Assembly (NCBI GenBank): GCA_965178125.1
Contig: OZ237760.1
Coordinates: 682,001-746,000 of the forward strand
Origin: Bilabrum cf. latius
Lineage: Eukaryota
Direction of reading: 5' to 3'
Length of the DNA: 64,000 nucleotides
How positions within the stretch are numbered: the first letter of the stretch is position 1; every line of letters begins with the position of its first letter. Under the pieces are notes generated by a model. The model worked only from the letters and a program-made list of their open reading frames with translations. It made no database searches and was not told the DNA's origin. Both the position numbers and the translations under genes were made by a program. Below are positions 3,792-56,059 of the stretch, piece after piece.

Positions 3792-6700
3792 ATGGACAGG
3801 AGTAAGTCTAGACGAATAAAACGCAGGAAGGAACTCAGAAACCTGTTGAAGAGTGGCGTAGCTGGTGGATGGGAGCAAGATGAAGGAATTGTTGCGCTAG
3901 TTGAGCAGTTTCGAAGGTCAAAAAGAGGGAGGCACATATACCAGGCACCAAATCTGGATCACCCGGCGTTTCGTGATTGGTCGAGGACGGTATCGAGCGG
4001 GCGAGCAGGGTCTGCTCTGCAAATGAATGTAGGTTAGCCAGTAGAAGAGGCCAAGAAACCAAGTAAATTGCATGCTACAGAATCAAAACGGTCGCAAGCT
4101 ACTGGGAGCTAGCACGAGTCCCGAAGCGCTGTCGCTGATTCGGTCTGGAATCGTCTCTCTCAGGCTGACCCCAGAAAGCAATCAGACCTTGCGAAAGGTC
4201 GAGCAGCTCTCATGCGAGTCACGGCCCCGAAGCCTCCTTCCCGATCCGCTAGACGACGGGTGGGTCGGATTCACAAGGGCAGGTATCGGCGATCGAAGAA
4301 GCGAGGAAGTTACAAACAGTCCGCTGCGAACCCTTCCGTGGACGGGGACGGGATCATCGACCTGCCCGGTGTGACGATTGCGGAGCTGCGGAGGAGGGCC
4401 GCCCTGGCGCTGCCCATCCCGTACGAGCAGCGCCTGCGGGAGAGGCTCAGGATCTCTGGGTTTCTAGAGGGAGACAGGCACATGAAGTGGAGCACCAGCC
4501 ACAACGGCGGCGAGGAGGAGGTGGAGGGGGAAGGCCTCGGGGGCGCGGGCCCAGGCCAGGGAGTGAGGCTGAAGGGGGTGTCCTATGATAGCGTGGGTAG
4601 TAACGGGAGCGGGATAGGATGGGTCTCTTCCTCATCCGCATCCCGCGGCCGTGGCGGCAACGAACGTTCGTCGAGCGCGGCGGCGTGGAGCCAGGCCGCA
4701 GACAGCGAGGGCGTGGTGTGGCTGGCCAGGCAGGGATCCAGGCCCCAAATATCGATCTCCGGAGGTGGAAAAGAAGACTCGCGCAGGGTAGGCCGGCGGA
4801 CTGGGGGTTTGCGCGGTGCCGGTAAGAGCGGAACAGCCTTCCGGTTGGACGCGCACAGCTGGGTGCGGCAGACAGACCAGATTGGCAGGGCAGGCTCGGA
4901 CTCACCCTCGCCAGATGCATCACACGGCGGTGCAGGTGCTATTTCCAGCCTGGGTGCATTCCCGAGCGAGACGATCCGATCTGTGCGGCCGGGACTGGAG
5001 CTGCTACGGGAGGACGACGAGGTGCGGCGGCGCCGGCTTGGGCTGGACTGGGGCGAGCGCCGCCGTGCAATGCACCTGGGGCGGCGGGACGGCTCTATGT
5101 CCCACCATATCCGGGGAGGTCACAAACCGGCCCTGCCTCCGCGAGTGGCGGGGATGAAGGCGGCGCTGGCGAGGCTGGCTGCAGCCTCGTAGAAGCGGCC
5201 CGGACCGGCGATCGAGGCGGCGCGCCGCCGGTGGCTCGCCTGGAGCAGAAAGGAGAGAAGGAGGAAAAGGCAGGCGGCCAAAGGCAAGCAGTGGGTGCAG
5301 ATCAACCGGCGGGCCGTGCGCGCCGCCAGTGATAGGCTCTCTGCCTGGAGACGACACAGCCTCGCGCTTGGGGGGCAGCTGGACCGCCGCGGGCTGCAGT
5401 CTCTGGGACTGTGGGCAGGCGACAGTGCCGTGGGTCAGAACGGTGGGGGCCATGCTGTCCATGACTATTCCAGCAGCTTGGTGCCCGGCGGTACCTGGGA
5501 CCCTACGACTGCACGCGGGGCGGCAGATCCCGTGGACCTGCGGCCGTTCTCTAGGCCCAGCACAGCGCCCTCCCCCTCCTCGTCCCCTTCCCCCATGCTT
5601 GGATGGGGAGAGGGAAGGGGAAGGGGAAGGGGAAGGGGAAGGGGCGCCGATGACGGTGCGGAGAAGGGCGGAGGTGGTACCGTGTAGTGGGCAGGGAGCA
5701 GCCTGGTCGGGTCAGACTGGGAGCAGGAGGAGGATCTGAGGCCCTTCTCGGACGGTGACGAGCCTTTGGGTGCGTCTGGCAGAGCCAGGCGGCGGCGGCT
5801 AGGCAGCGGCGCATCGTCAGCAGAGGAGGAAGAACAAGTGGAAGGTTAGCGCGGTAGGCTGGAGACCGGGGGGCTTGGCGGTGAGATGGGGCTGGTGTCG
5901 ATACGAGACGACGACGATGTTATCCTGTCCGGTTCCGAGGCAGCTGCAGGGGGCGAAGACCGTCACGGTGAAGCCGCAGCCACCGCTGGCCTTGATGCAG
6001 CTGGTAGCAAGCCCTCAGTCACATTTTCAATCGATGCAAACAACGTATCGAGCAAGCCGCAGGGCAGAAGCCGAAGCGGTGGACAATTCAGGCGAGGCGC
6101 AGGGGCGGCCCACGTGCCGTCAGTGTCGTCAATGTAGGTAGGGAGCGAGCGTGGGCCGCCCGGACAATTTCTGAACGGGGCTGATAGCGTGGCAAGCAGG
6201 AAAACCACTGATTTGGGTGCGATTCCCATCACTCCGATGGACAAAGTGCAAGCGGCACAGGCGCGCCTCCGGAGGGTGGCTCCAGTGCGGGAGAGGGCAG
6301 CGGCCATCCAGAGGGAGAGGATGAAGTCTCGGATCGAGCAGGCCAAGTGGACCATGGGCAGGGGTAGGCGCAATGCGGAGCGACGCGCAGAGCAGGAGTA
6401 TCGCATGTAGCGGCAGCGCGCCTGGATCAAGCTCGTGACCGTGCTCACCTTCCTTCGCCACACGGCCCAAGCCGCCGAGCCGGCCCTTGCGGAGGCTCGG
6501 ACGCTTCGCATCATGGAAAAGTACGTGTTCTTGATCCAGCGGACGGTGCGCAAGTACGCTCGCAGGATGAAGCAGAAGCTGCAGAAGGGAGCGTGGGTAC
6601 GGCAGAGGCAGCAAGCGGCACATCTCATCGCGAGATTCCTCAAAGACCACAGCGGCTTGCAGCAGGGGCTGGCGCGGTACGTGACTCTGTTCCGAGGGAA

Positions 6701-9700
6701 GGTTCTTCACGTGCAGAAACTCTTCCGGGGATACATGCAAGTGACAGAGGGCAGGATGAGGGCCCTCGCAGTGACCTTCGATGCCATGGTAGCCGAGAGG
6801 TTCTCCCTTCAGGTAGAGACCGCCAGCAACTAGTACAAAGCCCTATTGCACCAATACCAGAGGACAACGCTTGGAGATGCGCTGCGACGCTCCCAAAATG
6901 ACCGAAAACACCGGCTGCAGCTCATGCGGGCAGGTAGGCTTGGATGGAGGGGCATACTGCTGACCGCGGCTGAGCGCCTGTACGGCGGCGAAAAGTCTGC
7001 CAAGCAGAAGATGCAGGCCGCGGCAGCTTCCGCGCTTGCCATGCGGAGGCGTGCCGAGGCCGTGGACGAGCAGGAGCACGAGCGGGAGAAGGAAGTGCAG
7101 GATGCGTACAGGGCCACCAGGGTGCAGCACGCCGCTCTCCTCTCGCCAGGGGTGTCAGAAGAGACTGGGTCGCATGCAAGCACTGCAGTGGACTAGCTCC
7201 TTGGCGGGGGCAGCGCGCAGCGTGGCGGATTCTCAGGTGCTGGCGATGCGGTGGCATTGAAAGGCCGCCAAACCATGGACATGGGTCGCTTGATGCAAAC
7301 TGCAGCGGCGCAAGCCGGCCTGCATCACGTTGCGTTTGGCTTCGCGGGCGGCGGGCACGACGGGGAGGTGGAGCAGGCAAAGCTGCGAGACAGGGCCGCT
7401 CTGGATGCTCTCTCGATGCAGTTTTCGGATGCACAGAGGCTTGTACTGAAAGACAGGACCCATCGGCCGGCAGGGGGCCTCGTGTCACAGCTAGCGGACT
7501 CGTTTGCGACCACACCAGATGGATCGGTCTCGGTGAAGGCTGGCACGGTCGATGCAGAGCGAGCGCAGCTGCTCAAGCTCTTGATATCCAATAGGAAGAA
7601 GTATGGCATCACCGGGAGGCAGCTAAGCGCTCTGCAGGCCGAAATTGCTGGGGGCATGACCGGGAGACGAAGGGCCCCAACAGGCGGAGGCAGCGTCGGC
7701 CACCCCGGTGAGGCAGTGCCGCCTCCGGGCAGCCCACCCACCACACCACCTCGCCGTAAGGGTCTGGGTAAGGGGCCTAGGAGAGTGTCCATGCTAGGCT
7801 CTGGCGGCGCACTGGATGCAATGGTCAAGAGAAGGAACACCGCAGGCAGCAGTAGGGCGGCAGGCGATGGTGAGGCCGGTGGGCTGCACAGCGACAACTC
7901 GTCGAAGCCAGAGCCGCCTCGGCGGCCGATGCCCCCACCAAGGCGCCCAGGCGGAGGGCTGATCCTACCACCACTCGTCACGGAGAATCCGAACGAAACT
8001 GCATCTTCAGAGGCCAGCTCCATGCCGATTAGCGCCAGGACTGGACTCGGCTCCTCTCCGCCGCCTGCAACTGACCTACCGAAAGACGGCACTAGGACCT
8101 TCCAACTGAGCTCCAATGTCAACTCAATGAGTTGGAAACTTGGAGGAGCAGCACAAGGGCATATCGGCAGGGATGCTGTCCCCACGCCACGTATGAAGCA
8201 TCCGGCGACTGCTCGAGCAGCTCCTATCGGCGGCGGCAGCCTGCTGGGCACAAAGTCGCCACCTCGTCCCCACGCGCCGCTGTCGGCGCGCAGGAGACAG
8301 CCAGGAAGCAGGATTCCAGCCGACTTTGGACGAATTGGGCCGAAGCGCAGGCGAAGAAGCAGCAGCACGCGCGGCCGCTCCACCGCTCGGAGCTCTGCGG
8401 GGGGTTAGCAGGTGTTCTGGGGGGCATCGGGTGCTGCAGGCAGCGCAACGTTTCGGTCGGGCTCCAGATCCCCTGGCTCTGAGGCCGGGTCCGAGGACTC
8501 GAACTTTTCCGCGAAGTTTCGCGGAAGGTTCTTGGGCACGCCGCGGGGTGGTGGCCGACGAGGAGTCGCATCGGCCCAGGTGGGGAGGCCAAGGCCTGGG
8601 GCAAGCCCGAGGGAGAGGCGCCGACGAGGCTCTGCGCAGCACAGCAGCCCGAGAGACGGGAGTCCCAGCGGCGGTCTGCTGGGGTAGCTCGGCGGCGGGA
8701 TTGCGGTGAGATCGAGGAGTAGATCCAGGTCGCCCCTTGGCAAGGGGGCTGCCATGGCGGGAGGGAGGAAGATCGCAAGGCCCAGACGAAACTCTGCCTC
8801 CTCTTTGAGCGGCAGATCAGCACGAAGCAGCAGCGGTGGTGATCGTACCATCGGCAGCGAATTGCCATCTCTGGGCCTGGAATCGATGCTGCAGTCCCAG
8901 CGGAAGATCGAGCGCCGGAAATTCCTGAGAAAGCGGGAGGGCCCAATCAGCCGAGCTGGGCTGGACTCCGACAGGCGAGAGAGCCGCGTGATCCGCGCGC
9001 TGGAACAGGGCAATGCAGACGACATCAGCACAGCGCTCACCGGTCTGCAATCGAGAGACACCACCGATGGGAGTGTGGATGAAGCCGGTACAGCAGGCCC
9101 AGGCAATGACGTGGATCTGACGGAACAGCTGGGCGAGGCGCCCACTGCTGCCGTGAGCGAAGACGGTGACGGGGTGCTCTTCGGTGACGGCGATGACGTG
9201 CACGGCGACAGCCTGCCAGTGCGCTCCACTACCGCTGCAAGATCGAGACCAAGGCCGCCCACGACCATCCGCAGAGTCGGCAGCGCATCGATTCCGCGGA
9301 CTACGCGGGCGTCCGATGTCAATGGGGCTGATGGCTTATACGATAGACACGTTATTGGGTCAGCGCGGTCACCGCTCCATGCCAGGCTTGGGTCGCAAGG
9401 CAGAGGTCGCGCGGGTGCTGGTGCTGGTGCTGGTGCTGGTGCTGGTGCTGGTGCTGGTGCTGGTGCTGGTGCTGGTGCTGGTGCTGGTGCTGGTGCTGGT
9501 GCTGGTGCTGGTGCTGGTGCTGGTGCTGGTGCTGGTGCTGGTGCTGGTGCTGGTGCTGGTGGTGCAGGGACCGCGGACCGCACCGCGGGCCGATCGCTTT
9601 TTATGCAGACCCAGGCCACGCCGCTGAGGAGGATCGGATCAAGGATTGCGGCGCGCACGGCTGACGTGGTGGGCGGCAGGTCGCGGCTGGAGGCGTTTGC

Positions 9701-11876
9701 CAGCGTAGTCGAGGGAGCTGAAGTGAGCGCCGGCTCTGCTGGTCAGGAGGCGGCCGCTGAGGCAGATCGTGCCCCGGCTGTTACGCCCTTTCAGCACTAC
9801 TTGGGTGGTGTAGGAGAGCGAATTGGCATGTCGGAGCAGGGTCGCAGGGCTTACGCGCGCCCGCACCTGGGTGGCGCCGGTGCCGCGCCCAACTGGCACA
9901 AGCGGAAGCGGTCAAAGTCTGGGCCAGGCGATGAAAGCGGGCCTGCCGATGCGGGTGAGCGCAAAGGCGGGACTGGGGGCACTGCTAGCAGCCGCCCGGG
10001 TACGACACCCGGTGGGACTCTTCACCTGGTGAGCCCTCGAATGGCTTCGAGGCACGGGCCTAGGACTTCCCAGACCCGCATGATGACTTCGATCCGGCTG
10101 GATCTGTCAAAGGTAGCCAGAACACGAGCATCATCCGACGCTAGTTCGCGAGGCAGTGAAGCAGGGAAGAAAGCAGGTAACGCAACCGTTGGGAACAAGC
10201 CAGGAAGTATGGAAGGCAGAGCACCGTCTGACGCTTCCCAACCGAACGGCGCAACCGCTGCTCCAAAGGGCAATACCTAGGGCAGGGCCAAGCGCTCCCG
10301 CAGACCCTCCTTCCGACCTCTCTCTATCCCGTCCGGATCCGACTCGGCTGCTGCTCAATCCACGCCGATGGTGATTCGACCTGCCACAGCCCGTGGCGCC
10401 AAGCCGTCCCCTAGCATCAGCCGCAGCGGGAGCCCCGCAACAGGAGCCAGGTCATCGACCGCAGCGCATTCGACTGTCACAAGCTCTGCAAGCGGCGTTG
10501 CCTAGCAGCAGGAGCAACAGCAGCAGCAACAGCAAAAGGGGGACAACGAGCAGTAGGACAAGGAAGCAGTCAAGTAGAGTCGGCCTGTGCAGGCCACGGT
10601 GCCGAATCCTGGTGCTGGCGGCAGGCTGTCTCCTCGCGGGTCCTTTGGCAAGCATCCACTGCGGCTGGGACTTGGCGGTAAGGCAGCCGCAAAGCACTTC
10701 ATGGACACGCACGTGACCATGTGGCAGAGGAAGGAGCTGGCCGAGTCGGAGGCGATGCGGCACGCGGCGGTCGCGATCACGCACAAGCTATCGTCAGGTG
10801 GCGTTGAAAAGAAGCATGGCCGCAGGAGTGCCGGCGGGAGAAGGAGCAGAGGCGACAGGAGACCCTCCGATTCGAGCGTGTCCACGGTGGGGAGCAGCCG
10901 ACCAGGCAGCCGAATGCACGGGCAGAGACACGCGGCAGATGCAGGCGGTGAGGCCGGGTAGTCTCTCATGTCCTTAGAAGGAGCAGTTGGATTCAACGTG
11001 GACGTGGAGGAAACAGAACCAGGAAGAGAAAGAGGTGGAGGCCAAGTTAAGAACAGAGTTGGTGGAAGCAAGGCTTCATCCCCAGCACCGGCCCGCAAGT
11101 ACAACGGGCGTTCCAAAACGCGCACAGCCCGCAAACGCTCTTCTGGCTCGAGCAGTGCATCAGACGCTGATGATGCCTCGCCGCCTGCCCATTCCGAGCC
11201 GCCCCCAGCCGCCGCCAAGCTTGTGGACCGGCTGGGCACGGTGGCCACGACCGGTGCTCTGTCTGGAGAGGCGCCCACGGGACAGGCCCTTAGGGCTTCG
11301 ATTCAAGACATGGCGCGGCGGGCATCGCCCTCCTTCGAACCGCCGACGGGGCCATTCTAGGCCGAGGGCCGCGGGTTCAGATCCCGGAAGAAGGCAGGCC
11401 GAAGTAATCAAAACAAGACTTGGTCTGAACGATCCGGGATACTCGCGGAGCACATTCTGATGACCGCTGCCCGTCTGCCCCCCAACATGAGACCGGCAAT
11501 GCCCGATCCTGACTTGCGGCGGGCCATGCTGCGCGCGATGGTGTCTGCCATGCGGGTGAAATTCCGCGCGCGGGAGCTGCCGCACTGGCGCACTGGTGCG
11601 GCGGAGCGGTAGCTGGAGGCGATGCAGATCAGGCTAGAGGATGCCAGGCAGATGATGAAGATGAGGAGTGATGACGAAATGGCGCGCGCGGTAGCCGCTC
11701 GCTTTCTGTCGGCGCAGGCAGCCAGGACCCGACCCCCTGGGATGGTGATGGGGCTGAGAGACCGGGAGAAGCTGCACCGCTTCATGCTGCCCTTCCTTGA
11801 CAAGGCGTTCGAACAGGCGACTCTCTCAACGATGATCAAAGCGGCGGCGGGGAAGGGAGTGGAAGATCTGAGCTGA
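3792..11876 (+). CDS. Large (2694 aa) low-complexity protein with IQ-like calmodulin-binding motifs, function unknown
   Basis: Thirteen listed ORFs (3792, 4212, 5295, 5886, 6189, 6435, 6846, 7251, 8412, 8706, 10587, 10968, 11622) share one frame. They are separated only by TAG (18 counted) and end at TGA 11874-11876. IQ-like motifs LIQRTVRKYARR (~6531) and VQKLFRGYMQV (~6711) lie in a helical region. Confidence 0.8.
9414..9560 (+). repeat. (GGTGCT)n hexanucleotide microsatellite, ~24 perfect copies, encoding poly-(Gly-Ala)
   Basis: Directly visible perfect tandem repeat inside the 3792..11876 frame. Confidence 0.97.
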
Positions 11877-12010
11877 CTGCCGTTGATGCAGTGGCGTGCG
11901 CTTTTTTTCTTTTTTTCTTGCTTCATGTGTGCGACCGACCGTTGATTGACTGTTTTGCCTCTCCTTCTCGATCTCGGCAAGGCACTGTTCCTGTACTGCA
12001 GTGCTTCTCC

Positions 12011-15000
12011 ATGGAGAGCAAAACCAATGACACCGACTCAAATGTTGTTCACACGGATCCGACAATCATAACTGTAGTAGATGGCAAGAAGTACGTGTCA
12101 GGCACCTCGCAGGACGCGATCGCAGCTCCGGCCCCTGCTAGTTCCCAGCCCCCGCACACGACAAGTTCAGCGAAAGGAACCCCGCAATTCAATGGATTGG
12201 AGGGGCCAATCATAGCAGATCCTACAGACGATGATGATTCGGACGACGATGACGAGGAGGACTACGGCTGCGCCGACTGGATCCCATCGGTTTGCAGGTG
12301 CTGCGGAATGGACCTTCCAGCCCGACGGAGAGCAGCCACGCTAGAAACTGACGCCGAGACATAGGATGAGGGCGATATAAAGCCGGTGCTTGCGCATTCA
12401 TCTCAAGTTTCTCCAATCAGGCGGCGCCACCGGGCCAGCCGTACATGCTTGTTCTGGCACTGGGTGGGGCTGCGCCTTATTCTTGGCCCGGAGGCAGATC
12501 AGGTGCGAAGGCGGGCCTCAGCCAAATCAAAGTTTGGAAATTTGTTGGGCGCGTCCTAGGCCAAGAAGCCGAACGCCAGCGGGCCGTGCATGGGGTGGAG
12601 CTGCGGAGGTCTGGGGACCACTCCGCTGGCAGAACCGGGGGTGTGCTCAGTTTTGACCGCCATGCTCACTCAACTGGGGCCATGGGCCATCGTCGCCATT
12701 TTCCTTGCGAGCGCGTCAGGATTGGTCTGGTTGGGTGGGCAGGAGGACGGGAGGCCTCTCCTTCAGCTGAGGGAGACGGCGGGGTGGCAGTGGCTTGCAT
12801 ACCTGGCGGTTGTCATCGCGGTGGTGCCTGTGCTACGGGTGCTAAACAACGCGCTGTTCCTGTGCGTGACACTCACGTCCAGCACCTGCGGCTGCTTCCA
12901 TTGCGCGTTTCACATGGGGGCTCTGGATGGGCCCCTGTGGCTGGGGGCGCTATCGGGGGTGCACTGGGCGGCATGGAACCTGACCATCAACAGGGACATT
13001 GACGGGGAGGCGGGGGCAGGAACGGAGCGGCTGCGGGACAGGATCGGAACGCTGCTCGTGCTGTCTGCTCTGTACCGAGTAGCGGTAGGGGTGCTGCAGC
13101 GGGTTGTGAGGGGGGGCGTCAATGTCGAAGGGTTGGCAGCCAAGATCGAGCGACTGATGGGGTCCATGAAGGCCGTGAAGCGACTGACGGCAGCCGCAGC
13201 CAATTGCACAAGGGAGAGAAGGAAAGCAAGGGCGGCGAGGAGGGCCGGCGTAGGAGCTGTGGGCACAGCGCTCGGCTCAACGGCATCTCTGCCCCCCGAG
13301 ACCTGGAACACCAACCGAGCCAGCAGTCTCATGTACGGGGGAGGCGCAGATTCTACGCTCGGCTATTCCGGGTCTCTCGCCCCTGGCACGCACCCCGCCA
13401 GCGGGAAATACGGCGGCGGCGGTGTCCGCGGGCACCGCCGGATTCCAAGCGAGTGGCGTCAGCAGGAAGCGTCGCCGCCTCTCGTGACAGGGAGCGAAGA
13501 TGGGGGGCTGGGGCGGACGGCTAGAGGCGGCGGTGCGGACAGCAGCGCGATGGGGCGCGGCGTAGCCAGTGTGATGAGTGGGAGGGCCAGCGTCCCGCAT
13601 GGCATGGTGATCGGCAGCAGCGCCATTCCGCGCCCACTAGCGATGGCACCGCCCTTGGCGGTACCTGCAGCCGGCAGCATGGGGGCTGCCTCAAGCAGCA
13701 GCGACGCGCTTGGGGCGATCCATCCATCCCCTCGTCGGGCTGTTCCGATCCAACACGACCGAGCCCACATGGACGCAGACGCGCAATCTGATCTACCCCC
13801 AGAGGAGGGCGGCGATGCACCGCCACCCAGCGTTGCCTCTGCGGGTGCAACGAGCAGTGTCCAAGAAGTGGCACCGGCACCGGCAACGGCTCGCGCCGCT
13901 GCCAACACATCAGCTCGGAGCCACTGGGGCCAAGCAGAGCACCAAGAGCCCGATAGCGCCCCTACAGCATCGCAGCGGGCCACCGGCATGACTGCTGAGC
14001 TTGACGCTCCCATGCCGCCGCGGCTCCCTGGCAGCAGCCTTGGGGCCGAAGCGCCTGTTGGCGCACTGCCCGGGCCTCCAAGCGCCGGCACAGGCCACCG
14101 TAGGTACGTGTCTGGAAGTGGCAATACCACAGGCAGCCAGCAGTATGGCACTCGCGACTTCACGGGTCTCTCTGCGTTTGCTGCTGGCACCCCGGCTCCA
14201 GTGGGACAGAGCGACCACCATGACCCACCGCCCAGCGGTCTTCGCATCGACTCGACGCATGGAGGAACCGACAGGAGGCAATAGCACGGTCATCATTGCG
14301 ATCGGCAGCAGCATCAGCAGCGGAAGGTCTACCACGAGAGTCAAACCAGCGCATTCTTGCCCCGCCGTGCCAGCGGCGGCATTTCTCCCGGTTCGACTTA
14401 GGCACAGCTTGCGGGACACGACCAGCAGATGAGTCAGATCGGGAGCCGGGGAAGCACCTCAATTCGGCAGCCCGCCAGCATGCCCTCTGTGGATTCGCTG
14501 CAGCTGGCCACGCAGGCGGCGCAGACCGGTGACCTGCAGGGAGTGCTTCGCTTCGTAGTGGTGGACCCTGTTTTGGTGCAGCTGACCGGTGATTCGCTGG
14601 TAGAGGTCACCTCCGCCTCGCAGATGAGGAAGCTGGCCAGCGCGGCCTTCCAGAGGCTGGACGCAAGGAGAACGGGTAGGGTCTCAGAAGAGATGCTCAG
14701 GAGGCTAGGCGGGCTCGAGTATGCCGAGGCGGAGGAGTGCGTGCAGCTGATGGAGGCGACCGCAACCAAGACGTTCACCCGTCGGGACGCAGTGCTGTTT
14801 GCGAATCGCGTGTGGTCCGAATGGAGAGGGCTGTCGCTGACCATGCAGGGGTACAGCAGCGCCAATGACGCGATTCGTCTCATTGCAGAGGTGCTCTTCG
14901 TGGTGGCTCTGGTCATCACGGCTCTCGTCGTGTTCGGTGCGGACGTGGGGCAAGTGCTTTTGACGTTCGGCACGGTGCTGGTTTCGACGTCATTTGCCGC

Positions 15001-16972: not shown

Positions 16973-17175
16973 TCGCACGGTATTATCATTTTTTCCCCTT
17001 CAATTGGTTGGGATTGCACAGAGCACCCTGCAAAGTACAGAAAATCGGATTTTATTGTAACGTGCAGTCTCCAAACGGAATCTGTCGGTGATGAAGACAA
17101 AGCAAACGGCAACTGCTCGAACGAAGGGATCCTTTCCGGCAGTGGCAGGCAATCGTAAGATCCAAACCATCTGCG

Positions 17176-19107: not shown

Positions 19108-19159
19108 CTGGACCGAGTCAGGCAAGTGACTGGACCGAGTCAGGCAAGTGACTGGACCG
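19094..19159 (+). repeat. 3 x 22-bp tandem repeat AGTCAGGCAAGTGACTGGACCG spanning the zinc-finger gene stop codon
   Basis: Three exact copies at 19094, 19116 and 19138. Confidence 0.95.
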
Positions 19160-19360
19160 CTCATATGATTGCTTCCATTGTGTTTGTGTGTGATAGTTGC
19201 GGTGAATTAGAGCATGCTATCTCTCTTTCCGAGCGTTCTTGTCGCAATTGAAGTATTTGAAGATGAAGAAGGTCAATCCAATGTTGCCGTTGCGCCAGGA
19301 GGACGTAACTTGCACCGTATACGAGATCATTTTCCGCATCTAATCTAGAAGTTGGACGTC

Positions 19361-20526: not shown

Positions 20527-20761
20527 TCACTCGTGGATCTTGCTCACGATCCCGGCCCCCACAGTGCGGCCCCCCTCCCGCACAGCGAACTTCAGGCCCT
20601 CCTGCATGGGCACGGGCATCTGCAGGGTCACCGTCAGGGTGGCGTCGTCACCGGGCATGACCAGCTCCACGTCGTCTCCGAGGGAGTCAATCTTGCCGGT
20701 GACGTCAGCGGTGCGGAAATACAGCTGGGGGGAGTACCCCTTGACGAATGGGGTGTGGCGG

Positions 20762-20792
<31 letters not shown>

Positions 20793-31851: not shown

Positions 31852-32023
31852 TGCACGGAGCATATTAAGGGCGGGAGGTCGCCCAGGAACGTGCTCTCAA
31901 AGCCGGGAGCGGGGCTGTGGCCACCCACGGATTCAGCCCGAAGGCGCCGCACGAATTGCTCCGGTTCCGGGTACTAGGCCTATTGGTTCGGCGCTCGAAA
32001 AACATTCAGTCACATCAGCTGCA

Positions 32024-46800: not shown

Positions 46801-49800
46801 CACAAAGACTCTGCCTCGTTTCCTGTACAACTAGCACCGAACGCAAGAGGGCGATGATGCGAGCCTGCCAATGACCGCAACCAGCGATGGAGGCACCAAG
46901 CCCGAGCAGCAGCAGCAGCATCCGCAGTAGGACTTCCCAGTGACACTGAGTGCGATCGACCGACTGTTCAACGGCATCAAGAGAAGCATGCCCGCTGTTC
47001 AGCTAGCACCGTGGGTCAGTGCAGACGATGCTCTCACTTCGGTCAGCCAGGCGCTGAGGGATTTCAAGCTGTCGTCTCATCGTCTTGACCTGGATGTTGC
47101 CGACTAGGCACGGTCCCGATTTTCGTCTACTGATGCCACAGCAGCCCATGACAACCCGCCTGCAGCGGTACAATGCGTTTCAGCAATCTGCATTCAGCCA
47201 GCTGATGAGTCGAAGCGCGGGCTTACTTTGCAGTAGCAGCTATCAAATTTCGATCAGTTTGTGCTCGTGTTGTACTGGCACGAGGCTGGGCCAGACCCCG
47301 CTGGTGGAAATGGCCGCGCGCCTGGCTGCATCACGGGCGTATCATTCAGCTCCAGGCACCCTCCGTCTAGCGTCCTCTCCCAGGTGCACTCTAGGGTGGC
47401 GAGCTGGATGCAGATTGACGCGACTGTTGCTCGTCTGCAACACCCTCCATCCGTGCTGCGGCAACACTGGGACGTGTCAACCGAGGGGGCTGCTGCCTCA
47501 TCGCCGTGGTACGACACCCGCTTGTTCGTCCAGAGCAGCTCGACATCGATGAAGCACGCTGCTATTGCTGGCAAGGAGCCCCTGCATCCTCATGCAGCCA
47601 GCGTTGAAGTGTATCCGCGCAGCACCGTGCCGTCCATCCTGCGCGCCCGAGAATCGGCTGGCACCGCTGACTTGGAATCGATTTGCAGTGAGATGCGCAG
47701 AGAGCTTGATCATCTCGTGACATGCTGGCAGGATGTGCGAGCAGTTGGAAGCAGTGATGCGGTCTTATTGCCCAGAGCTGAGCTTCCAGCAGGCCACACT
47801 CGCGTGTCTCAATCCGCCAGCATCTGTGGTGTGTGTCACCTGAATGTGTCTGATGGCGCAGCAGCTGGCAGCTCAACTGGCCCAAGGCCCGCGCCAGCTG
47901 CCCAACACCCCCACCGAAACGTGACTGATTTGCTAGCTGGATCAAGCAGCGGGGGCGTGCACACGGGGTCTGGCATGATTTCATCTGTCGGCAGTGCCAG
48001 TACTGAAGCCCGCTCGCGGGCCACGCGTGAAATCCTGCGCACATCACGAGCTGACTTGGCCGGCATAGCGGTGGTTCGCATCAGCGTGTCTGTGGTTGAA
48101 GTGCACGAGCAATCAACGGGCGACAGGCGGAGCCATGCCGCTTCACATTCGAAAAGGAGAATCGCTACGTCTGCCAGCTTTCGCGGGGCACGCCCAGCGA
48201 CCACCAAGCATAGATTGCCAGGGAAGCGTGGGCTGCTGCAGCTGCAGCCCACACGCGTACTCCATATCAAGGGAACTGCCAGCAAGGAGCCGTGGCTAAG
48301 AGGAATAGCCCGCATGGGCGCTCCCACGGCAAGCATCCTTCCATCAAGTGAGGAAGAATCCGCAAAGTGCCTGCGGCCAGTCGTCAGCTGTATGTAGCGA
48401 GCCAGCACCACAGTAGCCCTCGTGCTCACGACGGAGATCTGGGTATCCCCCGCGAGACAGCTCTCTGCAGCCCGCAAGCAGCTCTCGCGCCAGCTGCTGC
48501 GGATCGCGGCTGCGTCGGCTTCTGACGGTCTTCGGACATAGGTGTAGCGTGCTGCAGTGCGAGAAGTGCAGTCCACACCAGCAGAGCTGTTGCACTGCAT
48601 GCGGCTTCCATCGGCCGCGACGGTAGCTGCCCGCCTGGAGATGCCACGGCAGGGGCGACTATCTACCCGCGCATGTCGATTTGCGGCTCTGTCTATCGTC
48701 AAGTGGGCGGCCGCAGCCGGTCTAGTGCGAACGAAAACTGTAACAGACTCACGGTCACAGTCACGGGATGGCTAGCAGGAATCAGCTGCCAGTGGGGAGC
48801 ATTCGGTATCTAGTGAGGGCGATCCCATTGCACAGCCCTCCCCGAGCGAACACCCTATTCGCATCGATGTGCTCCTGTCCGGCAGATTGTCCGATCCGAA
48901 GAGGTTTGTGTTTCAATCCACTTCGCCCATCGTGCCCATACCTACCTTCGATCCAAGCAGTGCCACCGATCGAGGGCTAGGTGTGGGTACAGGGCACCAA
49001 GGCTCAGCACCTGACGCACCAAAGCAGACCGCTTCCAGGCTGCTGGCACACTGCCGCGACTGGGAGCGATTTACCCGGGCCTCTGGTCTGTTCCCCTAGG
49101 AGCACGCGATGCTTACCACGACCGAGACGCAGGACGGCACCATGGTCAGGGTAAGGCTCGGCGGCAGTGGCAGTGGCAGTGGCAGTGGCAGTGGCAGTGG
49201 TGTTGATGAAACGCAGGGATTGGTGTCAGGGTTGCGCCATGATGGTCTGGAAGCTTGGCTGGTGGTACTGCTGAGACCTGCGAGCACCGACGTGTTCGTC
49301 CTCGGCACGACCCCGAGGATGGCGGAGCGGCTGATCGGCGAGGTGTGGGGCACTTTGACGTTCCTGTCCGCCGCGGAGCAGCTGCTCCGGCCTCGCGTGG
49401 CCGCAATGAAGGCAGGCAAGCCGATGCCGCTGCATGTACCGGACCTGATAGTGCTGCGTAGGGCGGGAAGCGGCGAGGCGCAGCTGCAGGGAGCATCGTG
49501 CGAGTACGCGACTGCAACAGACATCGACACTTTCCGGGCCCTGATTACACATCGAGTGCGTGGCATGGGTGCTGGGGACGCGGTCCAGCAGTGGCTGCCT
49601 CCAGCTTGCTTGGACCCGGCCGGCCTCGATCACCTCTCGAGTCCGAGTCCAAGGGGCCTTCCGCTGCTGCCTCTCGTGTGCTCAGGGGCTGCAGTCGGGT
49701 TTCGTCTTGGAGCTGTGCTGGCCACGGGCGGCGGCGCATCGCTGCCGAGACCATCCAATACTAGCCATGCGGTGCGGTTTACACTGCTGGACGCATGCAT

Positions 49801-52800
49801 GATCACAGCGTTTTCGGCTCCGAGGCTGCCGCACGCTAGCGTGGCGTCAATCTTGGTCCCAGCCGATGGCACCGAAGGCTGCGATGGTGCATCCAACGTC
49901 AATGCCACGGGGCTTGGACTGCCATTCCTAAACGCAAGGCTCTTCGGCGGCGGCCGCCTGATCGCGGCAGTGACCCGTGATGGTGTTCGTTGGCTGGGCG
50001 ATTGCATGCGCAAAGCACTGCACACGCTTGACTCTAGCAACCATACGAGGTATGGCAGATCCGCAGCGTCCAGCAGCAAGCCTGGCTCCGGCTCTGCAGT
50101 CAGCGGAGACCTCAATCGTGCCCCGTCAAGGACGTAGGCTCCCCGTACACGAAGCGGCGAGGTGCCCTATGCCCCTGGGTTCGGTATGAACCGCAGGGGC
50201 CACGAAGACGACCACCACCTGCGAGCGGCTGCGTCCGACCGCGCGCTGTCCTTCTCCTCCCACGGGACAGGAAGCACCGCCCGGGATTCTCTGCAGCTCG
50301 ACGCTGCGGGGACCGTGATGGACGCGAGGGGCTCCGACGCATCCAAGCGGCAGCAACGTCAGCTGCCTAGCCCAGGTTCGGGTCAGCCTGGCCCCGGGAC
50401 TGGTCCCAGAGATCCGCAAGCACGACGGCCCAGCTCCTCGAGCAATGTGCTGGCCCAGCAGCCGCAGCAGCCCGGGCAGCACCAGAGGCGTCATAGCAGG
50501 GCAGACACGGATACTGGCAGTAAACACTCCAGGAGGCCTTCGGAGCTATCACGGCCGGCCATCCGGCGCAGTGGTGGGCCGGGCGGAGGTGCAGGCGGAG
50601 GTGGCAGCAGCAGCAGTCGCCCTGTGCTAAAGAGCTCAAAGTCGCTGCGCCTGTCTCGCAAACCAGGCGCCATGGCCAGGCGTCACCTTGCCCATTTGGC
50701 CATGCAGGGCGCAGGAGGGCCTGACCCCAGGGGCAGTGTCATGCCCCCATCCGTGCAGCCCATGCAACCACCGGTGCTGAGCACTATCGCACAGAACCCA
50801 ACCGCGCAGCAAACTGGCAGTAGCACGCCATCTGTCAGGTCTGAGGTCCCCGATGCCCATACCGCTGGCGTTGCTGGTGAAGGTGCTGCGCAGGACGCTA
50901 CCGGCGCGGCAATGCCTGGCCTCCTCTCCGTTGAGAGGGCCCCAACAGGCCAGCCGCACCGGGGACCTCTGGCGAAGCGCGCTGCCAGCCCTCGCTCGGT
51001 GGACAGCTCGACGGTCGCAGCAGCAGCCAAGGACGGCGGCATGCCCGAGCAGAAGGCTGCTTCAAGCCGCTCTCTTCTGGTCGATGCCGGCGGGCTGCAG
51101 GCAGACAGCGGCGCTCTGGAGCTGTGTGGCATGGCTGCTGCTGTCGGCGCCACCCTGTCGGCAAGGTGCAACCCCGTGGTGCTCGCTGCCGTGTGCACCG
51201 CCGTGGATTCGCAGGTATTTGCCAGGACGGCGCCGGGGCCCGACCCGCTGCAGCTGGCTCGGTCGGCCCTGGATCTTGTGTCTGCCCAGCAGGGGGGCTG
51301 TGCCTGCCTTGGAGTGGTGGGCAAGGAAGCGTGCAAGTACCTGCTGCAGCTCACCGGCTCCGTGCTGCCGTCCAATGGGACGGGGTCCTGGCTGACTGAA
51401 CCCCTGCCGGGTCCCAGTGCCCATGCCCAGCGCAGATCCGCTCTGGGATCCCGAGTGCGTGCGGCCGCATCAAGAGAGCTTGGATCCCTTGGTAGGTTGG
51501 TTGGATTCTCGGCTGGGGCCAGAGACGTGCTGGCCAACCCGCCGAGCACGCGCGCGATCCTGTCGAACGCCGCAAGGCGCATGGCCAGCGCGGGCGCGGG
51601 CGCGTCCGACTCGAGAACTCCCGACACAAGCCCGGCCAAGGCACCTGCCGCCCCCGGACCGCCGAGGTCCGGTGCGCTCGTCACACCGCAACAGGGGGTA
51701 CCCGGTGGCTTTGGTCATTTCAGGGCGGGAGAGGAAATCCTGGCCAAGACGCGCTTGCTGGACTTCAGGCAGCAGAGCCAGGCCGAAGACCGCGTGATGA
51801 GGACGATTGGGTACGAGGGCACGCTGGGTGGGGCCGTGGCGCGTGGTACTGAGTCGCTGCGAGCGGTGGCTGGGGTCGGAACGGGCGCCGTCAGCCCGTT
51901 CTCCGACAGCCCCTCTACACACGGCACTCCTCCCGCGGCCTATCTGCGGGCCCTCATGCCCGGATTTGGACCCATGGCCACGGTACAGGACCGGCACAGG
52001 GAAGAGGCCCTGGCGAGTGCGATCCTGCGGCAGAGGCAGCACCAGCTGCTGCAGGGACACCTCAGGGCCGTCGACAACAGGTCGCACTCGCCGCCCCGAA
52101 GTGGGGGTGGGGCGAGCGGCGTGCTCGGGGAGAGGGCCCGGTCCGTGTCGGTGGCATCTACGCAGAGCGGGGCTGCTCGGGGCGGCAGACCAGAGCACCG
52201 CACCTCGGCCGAGCGGGCCCGGAGCGGCATCAGCGAGATGTACGGCAGGCAGCACATCCACAGGTGCGGCTTTGAAGTGCCGCTCGTGGCCGGGCTCTCA
52301 GTGGCCGGTGCCTGTGCCGCTGTGCTGAGCACGCTTCTCGCCAGCATCCGCGCTGGGACGGGCGAGTGGCCCGTGAGAGCGTGCCACTTCCATACGGAAG
52401 ACGCGGGATCGAGCCCCGCCCCGAGCCCCGCCGGCATGAGCGCTCCATCTCCCGGGCCGCGGCGGCGCGATGTGGCCTGGTTTTCTCTTCTGCACGCAGC
52501 GGCCGGGACCGTGTCTAGGACCAGGGGCACCCTCGGGCTGCAGCGGCACCAGGCGCGGGCGATGGCAGAGAGGAGAGCAAAGGAGCGAGCAAGGGAAGGT
52601 GCGGGGATCGGCGGCAAGGGGCCTCCATCAGCAAGCAGGTCGGGGCAGGCTGGTACCACTGACCCCGCCGCCGCTTAGGCCCGTGACAAGCGACCTGTTA
52701 CGACCCGTGCCCCCTCGCCGAAGCGGGGCTCCTCTTCGACCAGGCTGCCAATTTGCATCTGTGTGACCTTTTGCAGGGTCACCAGCACGGCCCCAGTCAA

Positions 52801-55800
52801 CACGCCGCGCCCGTCCTCCAACCGAAGACTTGGCTCCTCTGTTGCTGTTCCCGACGCTGAGCGCGAGGGTAGGCCGGGTCTGACGGGCCAGTACGGGGAC
52901 ACATCGGCCTGGGTGGAGCTGTGCACGATGCCGCTGGGAGTTTGGAGGCCTTCGCAGTGGTCGCAGTACGCGAGCAAACAGCAGCAAAGGAGGGCGGCTT
53001 CCGGCGAGCGATCCGCCGGTGGCGCGCAGGAGACCAAGGAGGGTGAGGGCGAGGCTGAGGACGCATTCACCGCGGCGGTGCGTCCTATCCACGACGAAGT
53101 GGCCAACACGCTGTCCCCTGCCAGGCTGCGGTTTGCGGGCCAGTCGGCATAGGCCGGCACCACTCCGCTGGCGGGCTTTGAGCTTGCGCCCGGCCAGTTC
53201 GACGAGATCAGCTTGCCGATCGTGGCCACGTCCGGGCTGGGCATGAGCACGAGCAGCAGCCCGCCGGTCGGCCGCAACGCAGGAGCCTCTGGCGGGCGCG
53301 GCGCCAGCGATGCCCACACGATCGGTAGGTTGTCCTCCTTTGCGCCCGAGGCTCTGCGTACTGCCGAGTCGGTTCGAGTGCCCGAGTCCTCGATCAGCGG
53401 GACCGCTGGCGGTCAAGGATACGCTTCGATTCGACCTGGGACTGTGGCGTGGCCGGCAGCGAGCGTGCAGGCAGTCGTGTCTACGATGCTTCGGATGGTC
53501 GCAGAAGAGGCAGCCAGGGCAGCGATGGTGAGGCCACAGGCGCCCCTGTGCGTGTCACCCATGGCCGACGGTGAGCCGAGTCGGCTGCGGTTCCGCTCCG
53601 TCCGCTCGTTTGTTCCCCAGGGCCCGCACAGGCAGCTTCTGGAGCACGAGGATCCGGTGGGTGCAGACCTGCTGCCTGCCGTGATGACCGTGCACACTGA
53701 CAGGGGCTGGGCGGCCGTGGCGCAGGCCGCCGTGCACCCGTGCTCGCGGGACATCAGCAGGAGTCGGGGCGACGGCACGTTCCATGCCTCGCTGTCCGGC
53801 ATGGTGACTCTGCCGGAGCAGGACACGCACCCGCCCACGTTCCGGCAGGACACGGCAGGCACGCAGGCCGATCTCTTCCAGGTTGCATGCTGCGGGGGGC
53901 AGGGCTTCGCCATCGCTGCTTCCAAAGCGGTGGCGGGTCAGTGCCAGGCGCAGTTGCAGCACGAGTGGGGCTCTTGTGCCAGGGAACAAGCCAGGGAACA
54001 AGGAGGTGCGCCGGACCTGGCAGGAACGACAGCGGGTACAGGCGCAAGCACAGGCGCGGGCGGGCCAGAGGCCAACCCGGAGCAGCCACCCATCCGCGTG
54101 TCGCTGTGCGGGTCAGCCATGGCCCCATTCGCTGTCAGAGGGAACGGCGGCTCACCGTCAGGGATGTCGTCACCGGCCCCAATGGCAAGCCCGGGGGGGC
54201 AGCATCGGCAGGCGCCGTTCCGAGGCGTGGCATCATCGTCGACGCAGTGCGGGTGCTTCGTACATGCGGCGCTGCGGGTTGGGAGCACCGCTCCGGACCT
54301 AACCTGGAAGCAGCAGTACGAAATGCAGCAAGCTCACAAGAGCGAAGATATCGCAACTGCTGGTGGGACCAATGCTGTCCCAGCCAAAGCAGGGGCTAGG
54401 CAGGGCAAGCCATTTCTCGCCGGAGGATCGGCGCATCGCTCTGGATCCATTGACCGAGGTGACCTATCCGTCGACCTTTGGCTGGTACCAGTGCCCATTC
54501 CCGCCCCGGCGAGCCAGAATGGGTCGCCCATGGGGGCCTCCGGTAGCATCGCGGTGGAATACGTGGCGCACGTGACGAGCACCTCCCGGCAACTCGCATC
54601 CAGCGGTTTGCATGCCGTGCAGCAGTGCGTGCAGGCGTCCTCCCTTGCTCTCATCAGAGAGGCCATGCTGTTGGCTGCGTGGGAGGCCGGCGTGCTGCTG
54701 CTGCCCTCGCCCGAGTTCTGGCCCAGGCTCATTGGGGTAGAGGCATCCGCCTCTGAGATCGACGGCTACCTGGTGCGCAACCTCAACACTATGCTGGCCA
54801 CACCCCCGCCCGCTGGGGGCACCGCCCGCGGGCATGGCACCGTGGTGCATCGCACGCAGGCACAGGCTGCCATGGAGCTTGCCTTGGGCACGGATGGTAG
54901 CGGGGATGGTGAAACTGCCGCCGCAGCAAATCATCATGCTGTCGCTGCCAGGCCCGCGATAGCATCCCCGTCAGGTGTCCGCAACAGCTCAGCGGGGGAC
55001 AGCGGCACGCCGCACTCCAGGCAGGGCTCGCAAGATGGTAGTCCAGTGCACGGGCGCGGCGGGGGTCCTTAGGATGTGCACGATGATGAGGAGCACGATG
55101 GTGGTGACCTTCTCAGCGCGCAAGAAGGTGCAAGGAGGAGCCTGAGGGGGCTGAGGCGGTTGCTGGATCCGCAGAGCGGCGTGTATGGGGCCGGCCGATC
55201 CATCCTGCTGCTTGCCAGCCTGGCTGCCAAGTAGAAGGGCAGGCGAGAGCTGGAGACACCGCTTCGGGCTCTGTGTGCTACGCTTCGGCTGCGCTCTCGG
55301 CTGCACGCTGGGGCGCAGCCCGCGGTGCAGTAGCTGGCCGTGCTGCTGCGGCTGGCTGCATCTACCAGTCTCGTGTCGGTGCGCGCTGGACTTGCCACCA
55401 ACGCCGCCCTGAGGTCCTGTGGGCCCAACTGGGTTGGTGCCAGGACGGCTGCTGAATTCCCGCTGCGGCCCAGCATCGTAGTGCTGCTCGTGCACGCCAG
55501 ACAGAGAGATCGGGCGCTGCTTGGCATTTGCTGCACCGATATCCCTTCCGGTGGTCGAGCCGGGAGCGCCAGTGGAGAAGCAGCAGGTGCGGCCCAAGGC
55601 GGCAGCAGCGCGCGGGGCACCACTCCGGTGGCCCCGCTGCCCCCACCTGATTTGCGGCTGTTCTCACTGGCAGCTCCCGGTTGGAGCCTACTGCGCGGGG
55701 GAAGCGCTGGAGAGTCTGGGGGTGGACTCACCGGCAACTGGTGGTCTGCGCCGCTGCGGATGCTCATGCCCAGGGAGCAAGCTGCAAGCAGCTTGGGTTC

Positions 55801-56059
55801 CTCTGGTGGCACGGCAGTAGGGGGGAAAGGTCTAGGCGAAGATTCAAGGGATGGAATAGGTGGTGGCGCGCAAGAAGCCCCCCAAGACGTTGCGAGGGCA
55901 TAGTTCGAGCAGGGCCTCGCCCTAGCGGTGCCAGGGTGGAACGGTGAGGGCGCTTGCAAGGAGCTGCTGCTGGACGAGGTGAGCAAGTCGCACTAGGCGC
56001 TGCTTGCTGCGATTGAGAGGGAGCGAGAGGCAGAGCAGGCTAGACGTGAGGAGCTGTGA
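37850..56059 (+). CDS. Giant uncharacterised protein, 6069 aa, single uninterrupted frame under TAG=Gln
   Basis: All of ORFs 37850, 38429, 38810, 39200, 39803, 40487, 41558, 41879, 42818, 43124, 45314, 45653, 46463, 47261, 48557, 48869, 49109, 50162, 52763, 53213 and 55340 share a frame. The gaps, read by hand, contain only TAG (about 42 in total). The first TGA is at 56057-56059. Confidence 0.82.

What the first reader, a model, noticed from the sequence alone, without database searches (positions are those of the whole stretch)
3792..56059. TAA is absent both as sense codon and as stop: UAG decoupled from UAA
In about 50 kb of reconstructed coding frames I found no in-frame TAA, although CAA is used freely and TAG occurs about 95 times. 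A ciliate-type UAR=Gln code would be expected to show some TAA. TAA also terminates none of the 13 genes. TAA is therefore either a rarely used stop or nearly unassigned. Either case needs a release factor that ignores UAG and a Gln tRNA that reads UAG but not UAA.
Basis: partly seen in the sequence, partly recalled or inferred. Interest (0 to 1): 0.85.

Follow-up and report, generated by a model that had tools for sequence, protein, structure and literature searches.

The report
UAG-means-glutamine code in a protist
This GC-rich stretch of protist nuclear DNA reads the stop codon TAG as glutamine while never using TAA inside genes, a rare but already described type of genetic code, here seen with TGA as the only stop in use.

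Summary
In 17,457 codons of 14 ORF pieces there are 94 in-frame TAG, 0 TAA and 0 TGA, and 12 of 12 complete ORFs end in TGA. This is not circular: with TGA as the only stop, the four longest frames are unchanged.

TAG means glutamine. One TAG lies at the Q-loop of the window's ABCG transporter, where 115 of 116 and 124 of 124 aligned homolog segments have Q. In a related metagenome contig (L001), one TAG lies where 145 of 147 exportin-2 homologs have Q.

TAA is not a free glutamine codon. About 29 would be expected from the CAA:CAG ratio; none is seen (P about 3e-15).

Whether TAA is a rare stop or unassigned cannot be settled. Zero of 14 stops gives a 95% upper bound of about 18%.

UAG/UAA decoupling with UAG=Gln is already published for Iotanema spirale and several ciliates (PMC5304391, PMC11687900). 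In those, UAA is the main stop; here only TGA is seen.

The organism is unidentified. The tRNA and eRF1 parts are inference. Verdict: a new member of a known kind, of moderate interest.

The parts
1..2931 (-). Myb (SHAQKYF-like) protein gene. The 3' end lies outside the window. Six in-frame TAG.
   Evidence: Pfam Myb_DNA-binding 6.8e-11; TAG positions.
3792..11876 (+). 2694-aa low-complexity protein ORF. 18 in-frame TAG, 0 TAA, stop TGA.
11891..16972 (+). MscS-like channel ORF (up to 1693 aa). 10 TAG, stop TGA.
   Evidence: Pfam MS_channel_2nd 3e-06. Counts. All 10 TAG lie in contigs of run X5 that are identical to the window.
17176..19107 (+). C2H2 zinc-finger protein ORF. 6 TAG, stop TGA.
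   Evidence: Pfam zf-C2H2 2.2e-28.
19169..20002 (+). EF-hand (EFCAB10-like) ORF. 2 TAG in the N-terminal extension, which may lie upstream of the true start. Stop TGA.
20527..21822 (-). Mitochondrial-type EF-Tu gene. No TAG, GC3 0.84, stop TGA.
   Evidence: Pfam GTP_EFTU 5e-62. Nearest Atlas clusters are eukaryotic EF-Tu. Counts.
22570..24189 (+). Cytochrome b5 / FAD-NAD reductase fusion gene. No TAG, stop TGA. Its ortholog lies on metagenome contig L001.
24806..25096 (+). Upstream exon of the ABCG/PDR gene (Walker A to Q-loop of NBD1).
   Evidence: Frame translation. Matches to NBD1 of Pdr5/Cdr1.
25049..25051 (+). TAG codon at the Q-loop glutamine of NBD1. This is the key column for TAG = Gln.
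   Evidence: The codon is TAG. The aligned residue is Q in 115 of 116 NBD1-side and 124 of 124 NBD2-side segments of 120 homologs.
25176..29559 (+). Rest of the full-size ABCG/PDR transporter gene. It holds a GT..AG intron at about 26114-26407, which contains the TAA at 26304-26306. Three more TAG; stop TGA.
   Evidence: Pfam ABC2_membrane 7.7e-47, ABC_tran. PDB Cdr1/Pdr5 1e-82. Intron seen. TAG columns 746 and 845 favour Q.
29965..31851 (+). 628-aa ORF of no known family. 3 TAG, stop TGA. A 91-nt GT..AG joint (29811-29901) lies upstream.
   Evidence: Joint seen in one X5 contig.
31805..33259 (+). GH28 polygalacturonase-like gene. No TAG, stop TGA.
   Evidence: Pfam Glyco_hydro_28 4.7e-35.
33641..37360 (-). 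Polycystin-type cation channel gene. 2 TAG, the last one 30 codons before the TGA stop.
   Evidence: Pfam PKD_channel 7.8e-27.
37850..56059 (+). 6069-aa ORF with no Pfam family. 42 in-frame TAG, 0 TAA, 0 TGA. The last TAG is 21 codons before the TGA stop.
   Evidence: Relatives are P0276 (86% identical) and P0277 (35%).
56098..57363 (+). Ankyrin-repeat ORF. 2 TAG, stop TGA.
   Evidence: Pfam Ank_2 2.5e-09.

Best explanation
The window is nuclear DNA of an unidentified, GC-rich, gene-dense, intron-poor protist. Its cytoplasmic translation reads UAG as glutamine. UGA terminates every gene seen, and UAA is never read as an amino acid. This is the UAG=Gln, UAA/UGA=stop type of code (NCBI table 15).

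Shown: TAG is a sense codon at near-neutral frequency; it stands at conserved Gln columns; TAA and TGA are both excluded from reading frames; TGA is the terminator.

Inferred: a dedicated tRNA-Gln with anticodon CUA, probably derived from tRNA-Gln(CUG). Its C34 pairs with G but not A, which explains why TAG but not TAA can be decoded. Also inferred: an eRF1 whose N-domain no longer recognises UAG but still recognises UGA.

I take UAA to be still a stop that is seldom chosen. The reasons would be G+C pressure and perhaps a preference for UGA, which would account for 0 of 12 (+0 of 2) terminators.
For: 1. Frames of 6069, 2694 and 1693 aa open only when TAG is read through.

2. In-frame TAG is 94, against 124 and 127 in the other two frames, so TAG is not selected against. 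TAA is 0 against 42 and 46; TGA is 0 against 292 and 277.

3. TAG = Gln in the window. The TAG at 25049-25051 is at the ABC Q-loop, with Q in 115 of 116 and 124 of 124 aligned segments. ABCG columns 746 and 845 give Q 4.47 bits against 1.12 for the next residue (N). The same method decodes 47 of 47 control codons correctly.

4. TAG = Gln in a relative. L001 carries a Cytb5-reductase ortholog (70% identity) and an exportin-2 ORF with 7 TAG and 0 TAA. Column 582 has Q in 145 of 147 homologs. The summed score is Q 6.39 bits against S 0.86, and 49 of 53 control codons are decoded correctly.

5. TAG is read close to gene ends (21 and 30 codons before the TGA), so it is not a position-dependent stop.

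6. Twenty TAG codons lie in contigs of run X5 that match the window letter for letter. The kind of run is only guessed to be RNA. If it is RNA, TAG is not edited away.

7. All 12 complete ORFs here and both genes of L001 end in TGA.

8. The mechanism matches that argued for Iotanema spirale and the rhizarian exLh (PMC5304391, section 9).
Against: No gene ending in TAA was found, so 'TAA is a stop' rests on analogy and on its absence from frames.

Against the intergenic TAA:TGA ratio (72:141), 0 of 12 has P = 0.007 and 0 of 14 has P = 0.003. That hints at stronger avoidance than composition alone would give. Against the off-frame ratio within coding DNA (0.134), the same zeros are unremarkable (P = 0.18 and 0.13).

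In every published UAG=Gln lineage whose passages I read, UAA is the predominant stop (PMC5304391; PMC11687900), unlike here.

No tRNA gene, no Rfam hit and no eRF1 gene is in the window, so the mechanism is untested.

Only three window TAG columns fall in alignable regions, and two of them are weakly conserved: column 746 has R 32, Q 22; column 845 has I 36, Q 19.

Against the distant homolog P0277, 1 of 5 aligned TAG positions shows Q.

A neighbour-composition test was uninformative.
Confidence: 0.72

Rival explanations
1. UAA is effectively unassigned. eRF1 is UGA-specific, as in UAR=Gln lineages, but only a CUA-anticodon tRNA-Gln exists. UAA is then neither terminated nor decoded efficiently, and G+C pressure has purged it from frames and gene ends. 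This would be an intermediate, codon-capture-like state.
For: Zero of 12 stops here and 0 of 2 in L001 are TAA. That gives P = 0.003-0.007 against the intergenic TAA:TGA ratio. The TAA trinucleotide occurs 164 times on the + strand, about a third of the roughly 460 that I calculate from base composition. UGA dominance is the opposite of published UAG=Gln lineages (PMC5304391, PMC11687900).
Against: The sample is tiny: the 95% upper bound on the TAA share is still 18-21%. Against the off-frame ratio, the zeros are not significant (P = 0.13-0.18). TAA is present in intergenic DNA and introns at ordinary levels (72 in 4708 nt, both strands). No eRF1 or tRNA data are available.
Confidence: 0.17
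2. This is an ordinary UAR=Gln code (table 6), and TAA is missing only because of GC3 bias.
For: UGA is the only stop seen, as in table 6 organisms. GC3 is 0.57-0.84.
Against: Other A-ending two-fold codons are used freely: CAA 24%, GAA 29%, AAA 23%. That predicts about 29 TAA against 0 seen, P about 3e-15. L001 adds 7 TAG and 0 TAA.
Confidence: 0.03
3. TAG encodes another residue (Ser as in Scotinosphaera, Leu as in the rhizarian exLh), or is decoded ambiguously.
For: Some TAG columns favour other residues. CSE1 column 252 has S 45 of 147. Human ABCG2 has S opposite window TAG 845. Against P0277, TAG positions align with D, D, T and S.
Against: The Q-loop column has Q in 115 of 116 and 124 of 124. 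CSE1 column 582 has Q in 145 of 147. Summed scores are Q 6.39 against S 0.86 and Q 4.47 against S -0.83. TAG also occurs inside poly-Q runs.
Confidence: 0.03
4. The in-frame TAGs are artefacts: pseudogenes, assembly errors, unrecognised introns, or RNA editing of UAG to CAG.
For: Many of the TAG-rich ORFs are low-complexity and have no known family.
Against: Frames of up to 18.2 kb contain 42 TAG but no TAA or TGA. An independent metagenome contig shows the same pattern. Independent runs hold identical sequence across 20 TAG codons. The fragment P0276, from a relative at 86% identity, ends exactly before window TAG 1069.
Confidence: 0.01

Closest known systems
Iotanema spirale (Fornicata) nuclear code: UAG = Gln, UAA and UGA stops (Panek et al. 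2017, PMC5304391; abstract, passages and section 9 read)
   Same: UAG alone is reassigned to glutamine and UAA is never sense. The same inferred mechanism applies: tRNA-Gln(CUA) and an eRF1 weakened on UAG.
   Different: In I. spirale UAA is the predominant terminator; here 12 of 12 stops are UGA. The organisms differ too. I. spirale is an anaerobic metamonad. This one is GC-rich and encodes a mitochondrial-type EF-Tu, a full-size PDR-type ABCG, GH28 and a polycystin channel.
Ciliates with UAG = Gln only (Protocruzia tuzeti, Hartmannula sinica, Trochilia petrani; NCBI table 15; McGowan et al. 2024, PMC11687900; passages read)
   Same: The same codon table applies: UAG = Gln, and UAA is not sense.
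   Different: In those ciliates 93.5-100% of C-terminal alignments end at UAA. Here there are none. Nothing in this window points to a ciliate; the long multi-gene contig as a contrast to ciliate macronuclear DNA is my recollection, not a test.
UAR = Gln codes (NCBI table 6: many ciliates, hexamitin diplomonads, Dasycladales/Cladophorales/Trentepohliales, Streblomastix; Amoeboaphelidium protococcarum as cited in PMC5304391, PMC6299283, PMC11687900)
   Same: UAG = Gln, and UGA is the working terminator.
   Different: Those codes also read UAA as Gln. Here 0 in-frame TAA are seen against about 29 expected.
UAG reassigned to other residues with UAA kept as stop: rhizarian exLh (Leu; PMC5304391) and Scotinosphaera (Ser; PMC8271138, passages read)
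   Same: UAG is decoupled from UAA in a non-ciliate nuclear genome.
   Different: The residue differs: Gln here.
TAG-recoded bacteriophages ('genetic code 15'; PMC9523058, abstract in search listing only)
   Same: TAG = Gln with TAA kept.
   Different: Those are phage genomes translated by bacterial ribosomes with RF1/RF2. The window carries eukaryotic genes with spliceosomal-type GT..AG introns.

Membership tests
UAG=Gln, UAA/UGA=stop code (NCBI table 15 type) | In-frame UAG in bona fide genes at positions where homologs have Gln | tested here: met
   Q-loop column has Q in 115 of 116 and 124 of 124. ABCG columns give Q 4.47 bits. In the relative L001, Q scores 6.39 bits and one column has Q in 145 of 147.
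UAG=Gln, UAA/UGA=stop code (NCBI table 15 type) | No in-frame UAA or UGA in coding sequence | tested here: met
   0 TAA and 0 TGA in 17,457 codons. 0 TAA in 906 codons of the L001 exportin-2 ORF.
UAG=Gln, UAA/UGA=stop code (NCBI table 15 type) | UGA used as terminator | tested here: met
   12 of 12 complete ORFs; 2 of 2 in L001.
UAG=Gln, UAA/UGA=stop code (NCBI table 15 type) | UAA used as terminator | tested here: inconclusive
   0 of 12 and 0 of 2. The 95% upper bound on its share is 0.18-0.21.
UAG=Gln, UAA/UGA=stop code (NCBI table 15 type) | tRNA-Gln with anticodon CUA and no tRNA-Gln(UUA) | not testable with these tools
   No tRNA gene in the window, no Rfam hit, and no genome held.
UAG=Gln, UAA/UGA=stop code (NCBI table 15 type) | eRF1 N-domain altered so that UAG is not recognised | not testable with these tools
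   No eRF1 gene in the window; no genome held.
UAR=Gln code (NCBI table 6) | UAA used as a Gln codon alongside UAG | tested here: not met
   0 TAA against about 29 expected from CAA:CAG, P about 3e-15.
Context-dependent stop/sense codes (Condylostoma, Blastocrithidia type) | The reassigned codon also terminates genes and is depleted near gene ends | tested here: not met
   0 of 12 ORFs end in TAG. TAG occurs 21 and 30 codons before TGA stops. The sample is small.
UAG=Leu (table 16 type) or UAG=Ser (Scotinosphaera type) | UAG at conserved Leu or Ser columns | tested here: not met
   S scores 0.86 bits against Q 6.39, and -0.83 against 4.47. L is not among the eight best residues nor the six best. 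The Q-loop column has no S or L.

The most novel reading that the evidence does not exclude
UAA is a truly unassigned codon in this lineage. UGA would be the sole terminator and only UAG, through a CUA-anticodon tRNA, is captured for glutamine. G+C pressure would have purged UAA. That would make this lineage a living intermediate between the standard code and the common UAR=Gln code, in a deep, so far unnamed non-ciliate protist lineage that also turns up in environmental data.
Probability: 0.15. Interest if true: 0.8.

Novelty: new member of a known kind. Interest (0 to 1): 0.45.

Why it matters
In the papers read here, the nuclear codes named as giving UAG and UAA different meanings are Iotanema, the rhizarian exLh, Scotinosphaera and a few ciliates (PMC11687900, PMC5304391). 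They bear on whether eRF1 and tRNA wobble tie the two codons together.

This window adds what looks like an independent, GC-rich, non-ciliate case. A second, related organism in metagenome data (L001) shares the code.

Here UGA rather than UAA does the terminating. That offers a natural test of how G+C pressure and release-factor specificity interact during stop-codon capture.

There is also a practical side. Gene callers using the standard code shatter these genes. The public protein fragments P0127, P0132 and P0276 end exactly at TAG. Any annotation of this genome needs table 15.

Tried and rejected
- Whole genome: not held.

- Neighbour-composition test for the meaning of TAG: Q was the most enriched neighbour (32 seen, 24.2 expected), but the profile likelihood did not favour Q. 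Uninformative.

- First pairwise look at ABCG columns 746 and 845 and human ABCG2 (S opposite TAG 845): inconclusive. Superseded by the multiple alignment with controls and the Q-loop column.

- PKD channel homolog search: 4 hits, the best three at 31-33% identity, and none covers its TAG codons.

- Search for short fragments of relatives of the 6069-aa protein: only two hits. P0276 spans no TAG. P0277 (35% identity) shows Q at 1 of 5 aligned TAG positions.

- Identifying the organism failed. Nearest Atlas clusters for EF-Tu are generic eukaryotic ones. Of the ten best exportin-2 homologs looked up, the named ones are a streptophyte alga and a sponge at 32-34% identity. In an ABCG tree the window groups only with unnamed environmental sequences (FastTree, long branch).

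- More DNA of the lineage: the metagenome scan gave one related contig (L001) and three unrelated ones. Two scans of genome contigs gave none and only bacterial distant homologs. One scan of viral contigs gave none.

- Sequencing runs: no RNA holder is listed. X5 and X6 are only guessed to be RNA. Parts of the stretch without cover are not interpreted. The planned TAG/CAG comparison with the roughly 90%-identical relatives in X8 and X9 could therefore not be made.

- Six TAA-ending or small ORFs in intergenic DNA and the satellite had no Pfam family.

- Literature searches for a GC-rich non-ciliate UAG=Gln eukaryote found none. The library lacks many subscription papers, and supplements were not open, so a published description of this organism cannot be excluded.
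Full report
**What is there.** The window is G+C-rich (0.59-0.68 per 4 kb). Under the standard or bacterial code no ORF exceeds 1041 aa. Reading TAG through opens frames of 6069, 2694, 1693, 1239 and 1073 aa.

TAG is the codon that matters, not TAA. The longest stop-to-stop frames are 1052 codons with all three stops, 6142 with TGA+TAA, 6142 with TGA alone, and 1052 with TGA+TAG.

The ORFs are eukaryotic:
- a SHAQKYF-like Myb protein
- an MscS-like channel
- a five-finger C2H2 protein
- a mitochondrial-type EF-Tu
- a cytochrome-b5 reductase fusion
- a full-size PDR-type ABCG transporter
- a GH28 polygalacturonase
- a polycystin channel
- an ankyrin protein
- two giant low-complexity proteins without any Pfam family

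Genes are tightly packed. Most are uninterrupted. The ABCG gene has GT..AG introns.

**The observation.** In 14 ORF pieces (17,457 codons) I count 94 in-frame TAG, 0 TAA and 0 TGA. The two other frames of the same DNA hold 124 and 127 TAG, 42 and 46 TAA, and 292 and 277 TGA.

TAG is therefore under no selection against being in frame. TAA is excluded as strictly as TGA.

A-ending synonymous codons are not avoided: CAA is 24% of CAR, GAA 29%, AAA 23%. If TAA were a synonym of TAG, about 29 would be expected; P(0) is about 3e-15.

Twelve of 12 complete ORFs end in TGA.

The count is not circular. With TGA as the only stop, four of the long frames are unchanged and two gain only 34 and 3 codons upstream of their starts. 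The only TAA that closes a homology-bearing frame (26304-26306) lies inside an intron of about 290 nt.

- *In the window.* An upstream exon of the ABCG gene carries a TAG (25049-25051) exactly at the Q-loop of the first nucleotide-binding domain. In 120 homologs the aligned residue is Q in 115 of 116 NBD1-side segments (1 E) and in 124 of 124 NBD2-side segments. Fungal Pdr5 and Cdr1 have E in NBD1 and Q in NBD2.
- *Two more ABCG columns* are weakly conserved. Column 746 has R 32, Q 22, K 16. Column 845 has I 36, Q 19, N 15. Together they still score Q best (4.47 bits; next N 1.12; S -0.83). The same procedure decodes 47 of 47 control codons correctly.
- *In a relative.* A metagenome scan with the b5-reductase found contig L001 (3606 nt, GC 0.58-0.60). 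It carries the ortholog's C-terminus (70% identity). On the other strand it carries an exportin-2/CSE1 ORF of 906 codons with 7 TAG and 0 TAA. Both genes end in TGA.
- *Exportin-2 columns.* Against 148 exportin-2 homologs, one TAG column has Q in 145 of 147; the other six are variable or gapped. Summed log-odds are Q 6.39 bits and S 0.86. That is 0.91 bits per codon, against 0.89 for CAG. The control decodes 49 of 53 codons correctly.
- *Context.* TAG also sits inside poly-Q runs.

Evidence on the other side:
- Human ABCG2 has S opposite TAG 845.
- A 35%-identical homolog of the giant protein shows Q at only 1 of 5 aligned TAG positions.
- A neighbour-composition test was uninformative.

Ser (Scotinosphaera type) and Leu (exLh type) are not supported.

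**Not an artefact.**
- Contigs of run X5 identical to the window (0 other letters) cover 20 of the TAG codons. The run's kind is only guessed to be RNA.
- One such contig carries a 91-nt GT..AG joint (29810 to 29902). If these contigs are cDNA-derived, UAG is not edited away.
- A public protein fragment from a relative (P0276, 86% identical) spans residues 902-1068 of the giant protein and stops exactly before the window's TAG 1069.
- L001's own public gene calls (P0127, P0132) are likewise cut at TAG.
- TAG occurs 21 and 30 codons before TGA stops, so it is not a position-dependent terminator in this sample.

**What TAA is.** It is not a sense codon. Whether it is a rarely used stop or unassigned cannot be decided here.

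Zero of 12 (14 with L001) gives a 95% upper bound of 0.21 (0.18) on its share of stops. Against the intergenic TAA:TGA ratio (72:141 in 4708 nt, both strands) the zeros have P = 0.007 (0.003). Against the off-frame ratio within coding DNA (0.134) they have P = 0.18 (0.13). So there is a hint, no more, that TAA is avoided as a terminator beyond composition.

**Mechanism.** No tRNA gene, no Rfam family and no eRF1 gene is in the window, and no genome is held. The rest is inference.

A tRNA-Gln(CUA) reads UAG but not UAA, because C34 cannot pair with A. An eRF1 altered in its N-domain spares UAG. This is the argument of Panek et al. for Iotanema and exLh (PMC5304391, section 9).

**Comparison and novelty.** Decoupling of UAG from UAA is in print:
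- UAG=Gln in Iotanema spirale and UAG=Leu in a rhizarian (PMC5304391).
- UAG=Gln in Protocruzia, Hartmannula and Trochilia, with 93.5-100% of C-terminal alignments ending at UAA in the latter two (PMC11687900, passages).
- UAG=Ser in Scotinosphaera (PMC8271138, passages).

The present case fits the table-15 type on every feature that could be tested, except that no UAA terminator was seen. UGA, not UAA, is the working stop.

The organism could not be named. Homologs are 31-42% identical and span plants, oomycetes and algae. In an ABCG tree the window joins only unnamed environmental sequences. Six literature searches found no GC-rich non-ciliate UAG=Gln eukaryote. The library is incomplete and supplements were closed.

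I rate it a new member of a known kind. The bolder reading is that UAA is truly unassigned, an intermediate towards UAR=Gln. I give that about 15%.

Noticed in passing
window 58881-64000: Tandem satellite of about 650-680 bp units, at least 8 copies at 60-95% identity, running to the end of the window. The ORFs in it have equal GC at all three codon positions and no Pfam family. It may be a subtelomeric or centromeric array.
   Followed up: partly
window 9411-9570: Perfect (GCTGGT)n hexanucleotide array. It encodes an (AG)n dipeptide run of about 50 residues inside the 2694-aa ORF. Similar shorter arrays occur at 23893-23986 (TG dipeptides in the b5 reductase).
   Followed up: no
window 57806-58408 (-) and 31624-31740 (+): A minus-strand ORF ending in TGA shares a C-terminal motif (…GRP.ELAKRLRLG.LAGG…) with the 628-aa ORF (inverted repeat I1, 75% over 117 nt). 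The site 31684-31742 attracts many loose-ended contigs in all four runs, so it looks like a dispersed repeated domain or gene family.
   Followed up: partly
L001 1-3606: Metagenome contig from a related organism using the same code (7 in-frame TAG, TGA stops). Gene order differs: exportin-2 lies tail to tail with the b5 reductase, where the window has the ABCG gene.
   Followed up: yes
window 11880-31879 in runs X8 and X9: Two further public runs (one labelled protist metagenome) hold contigs about 88-92% identical to the window over 0.7-2.4 kb pieces. So at least one close relative exists in other samples. Their TAG/CAG differences could not be read because the variant table was truncated.
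   Followed up: partly
window 11877-11890, 19108-19168, 56060-56097: Spacers between consecutive same-strand ORFs are only 14-61 nt as ORFs are drawn. Contigs of run X5 end 6 and 16 nt after two TGA stops. The genome looks very compact, or the true start codons lie further in.
   Followed up: no
window 25342-28260: Contigs in all four runs that match the ABCG gene at under 95% identity, with non-GT..AG 'joints' (for example 25710 to 26647). These look like paralogous ABCG genes rather than splice forms.
   Followed up: no
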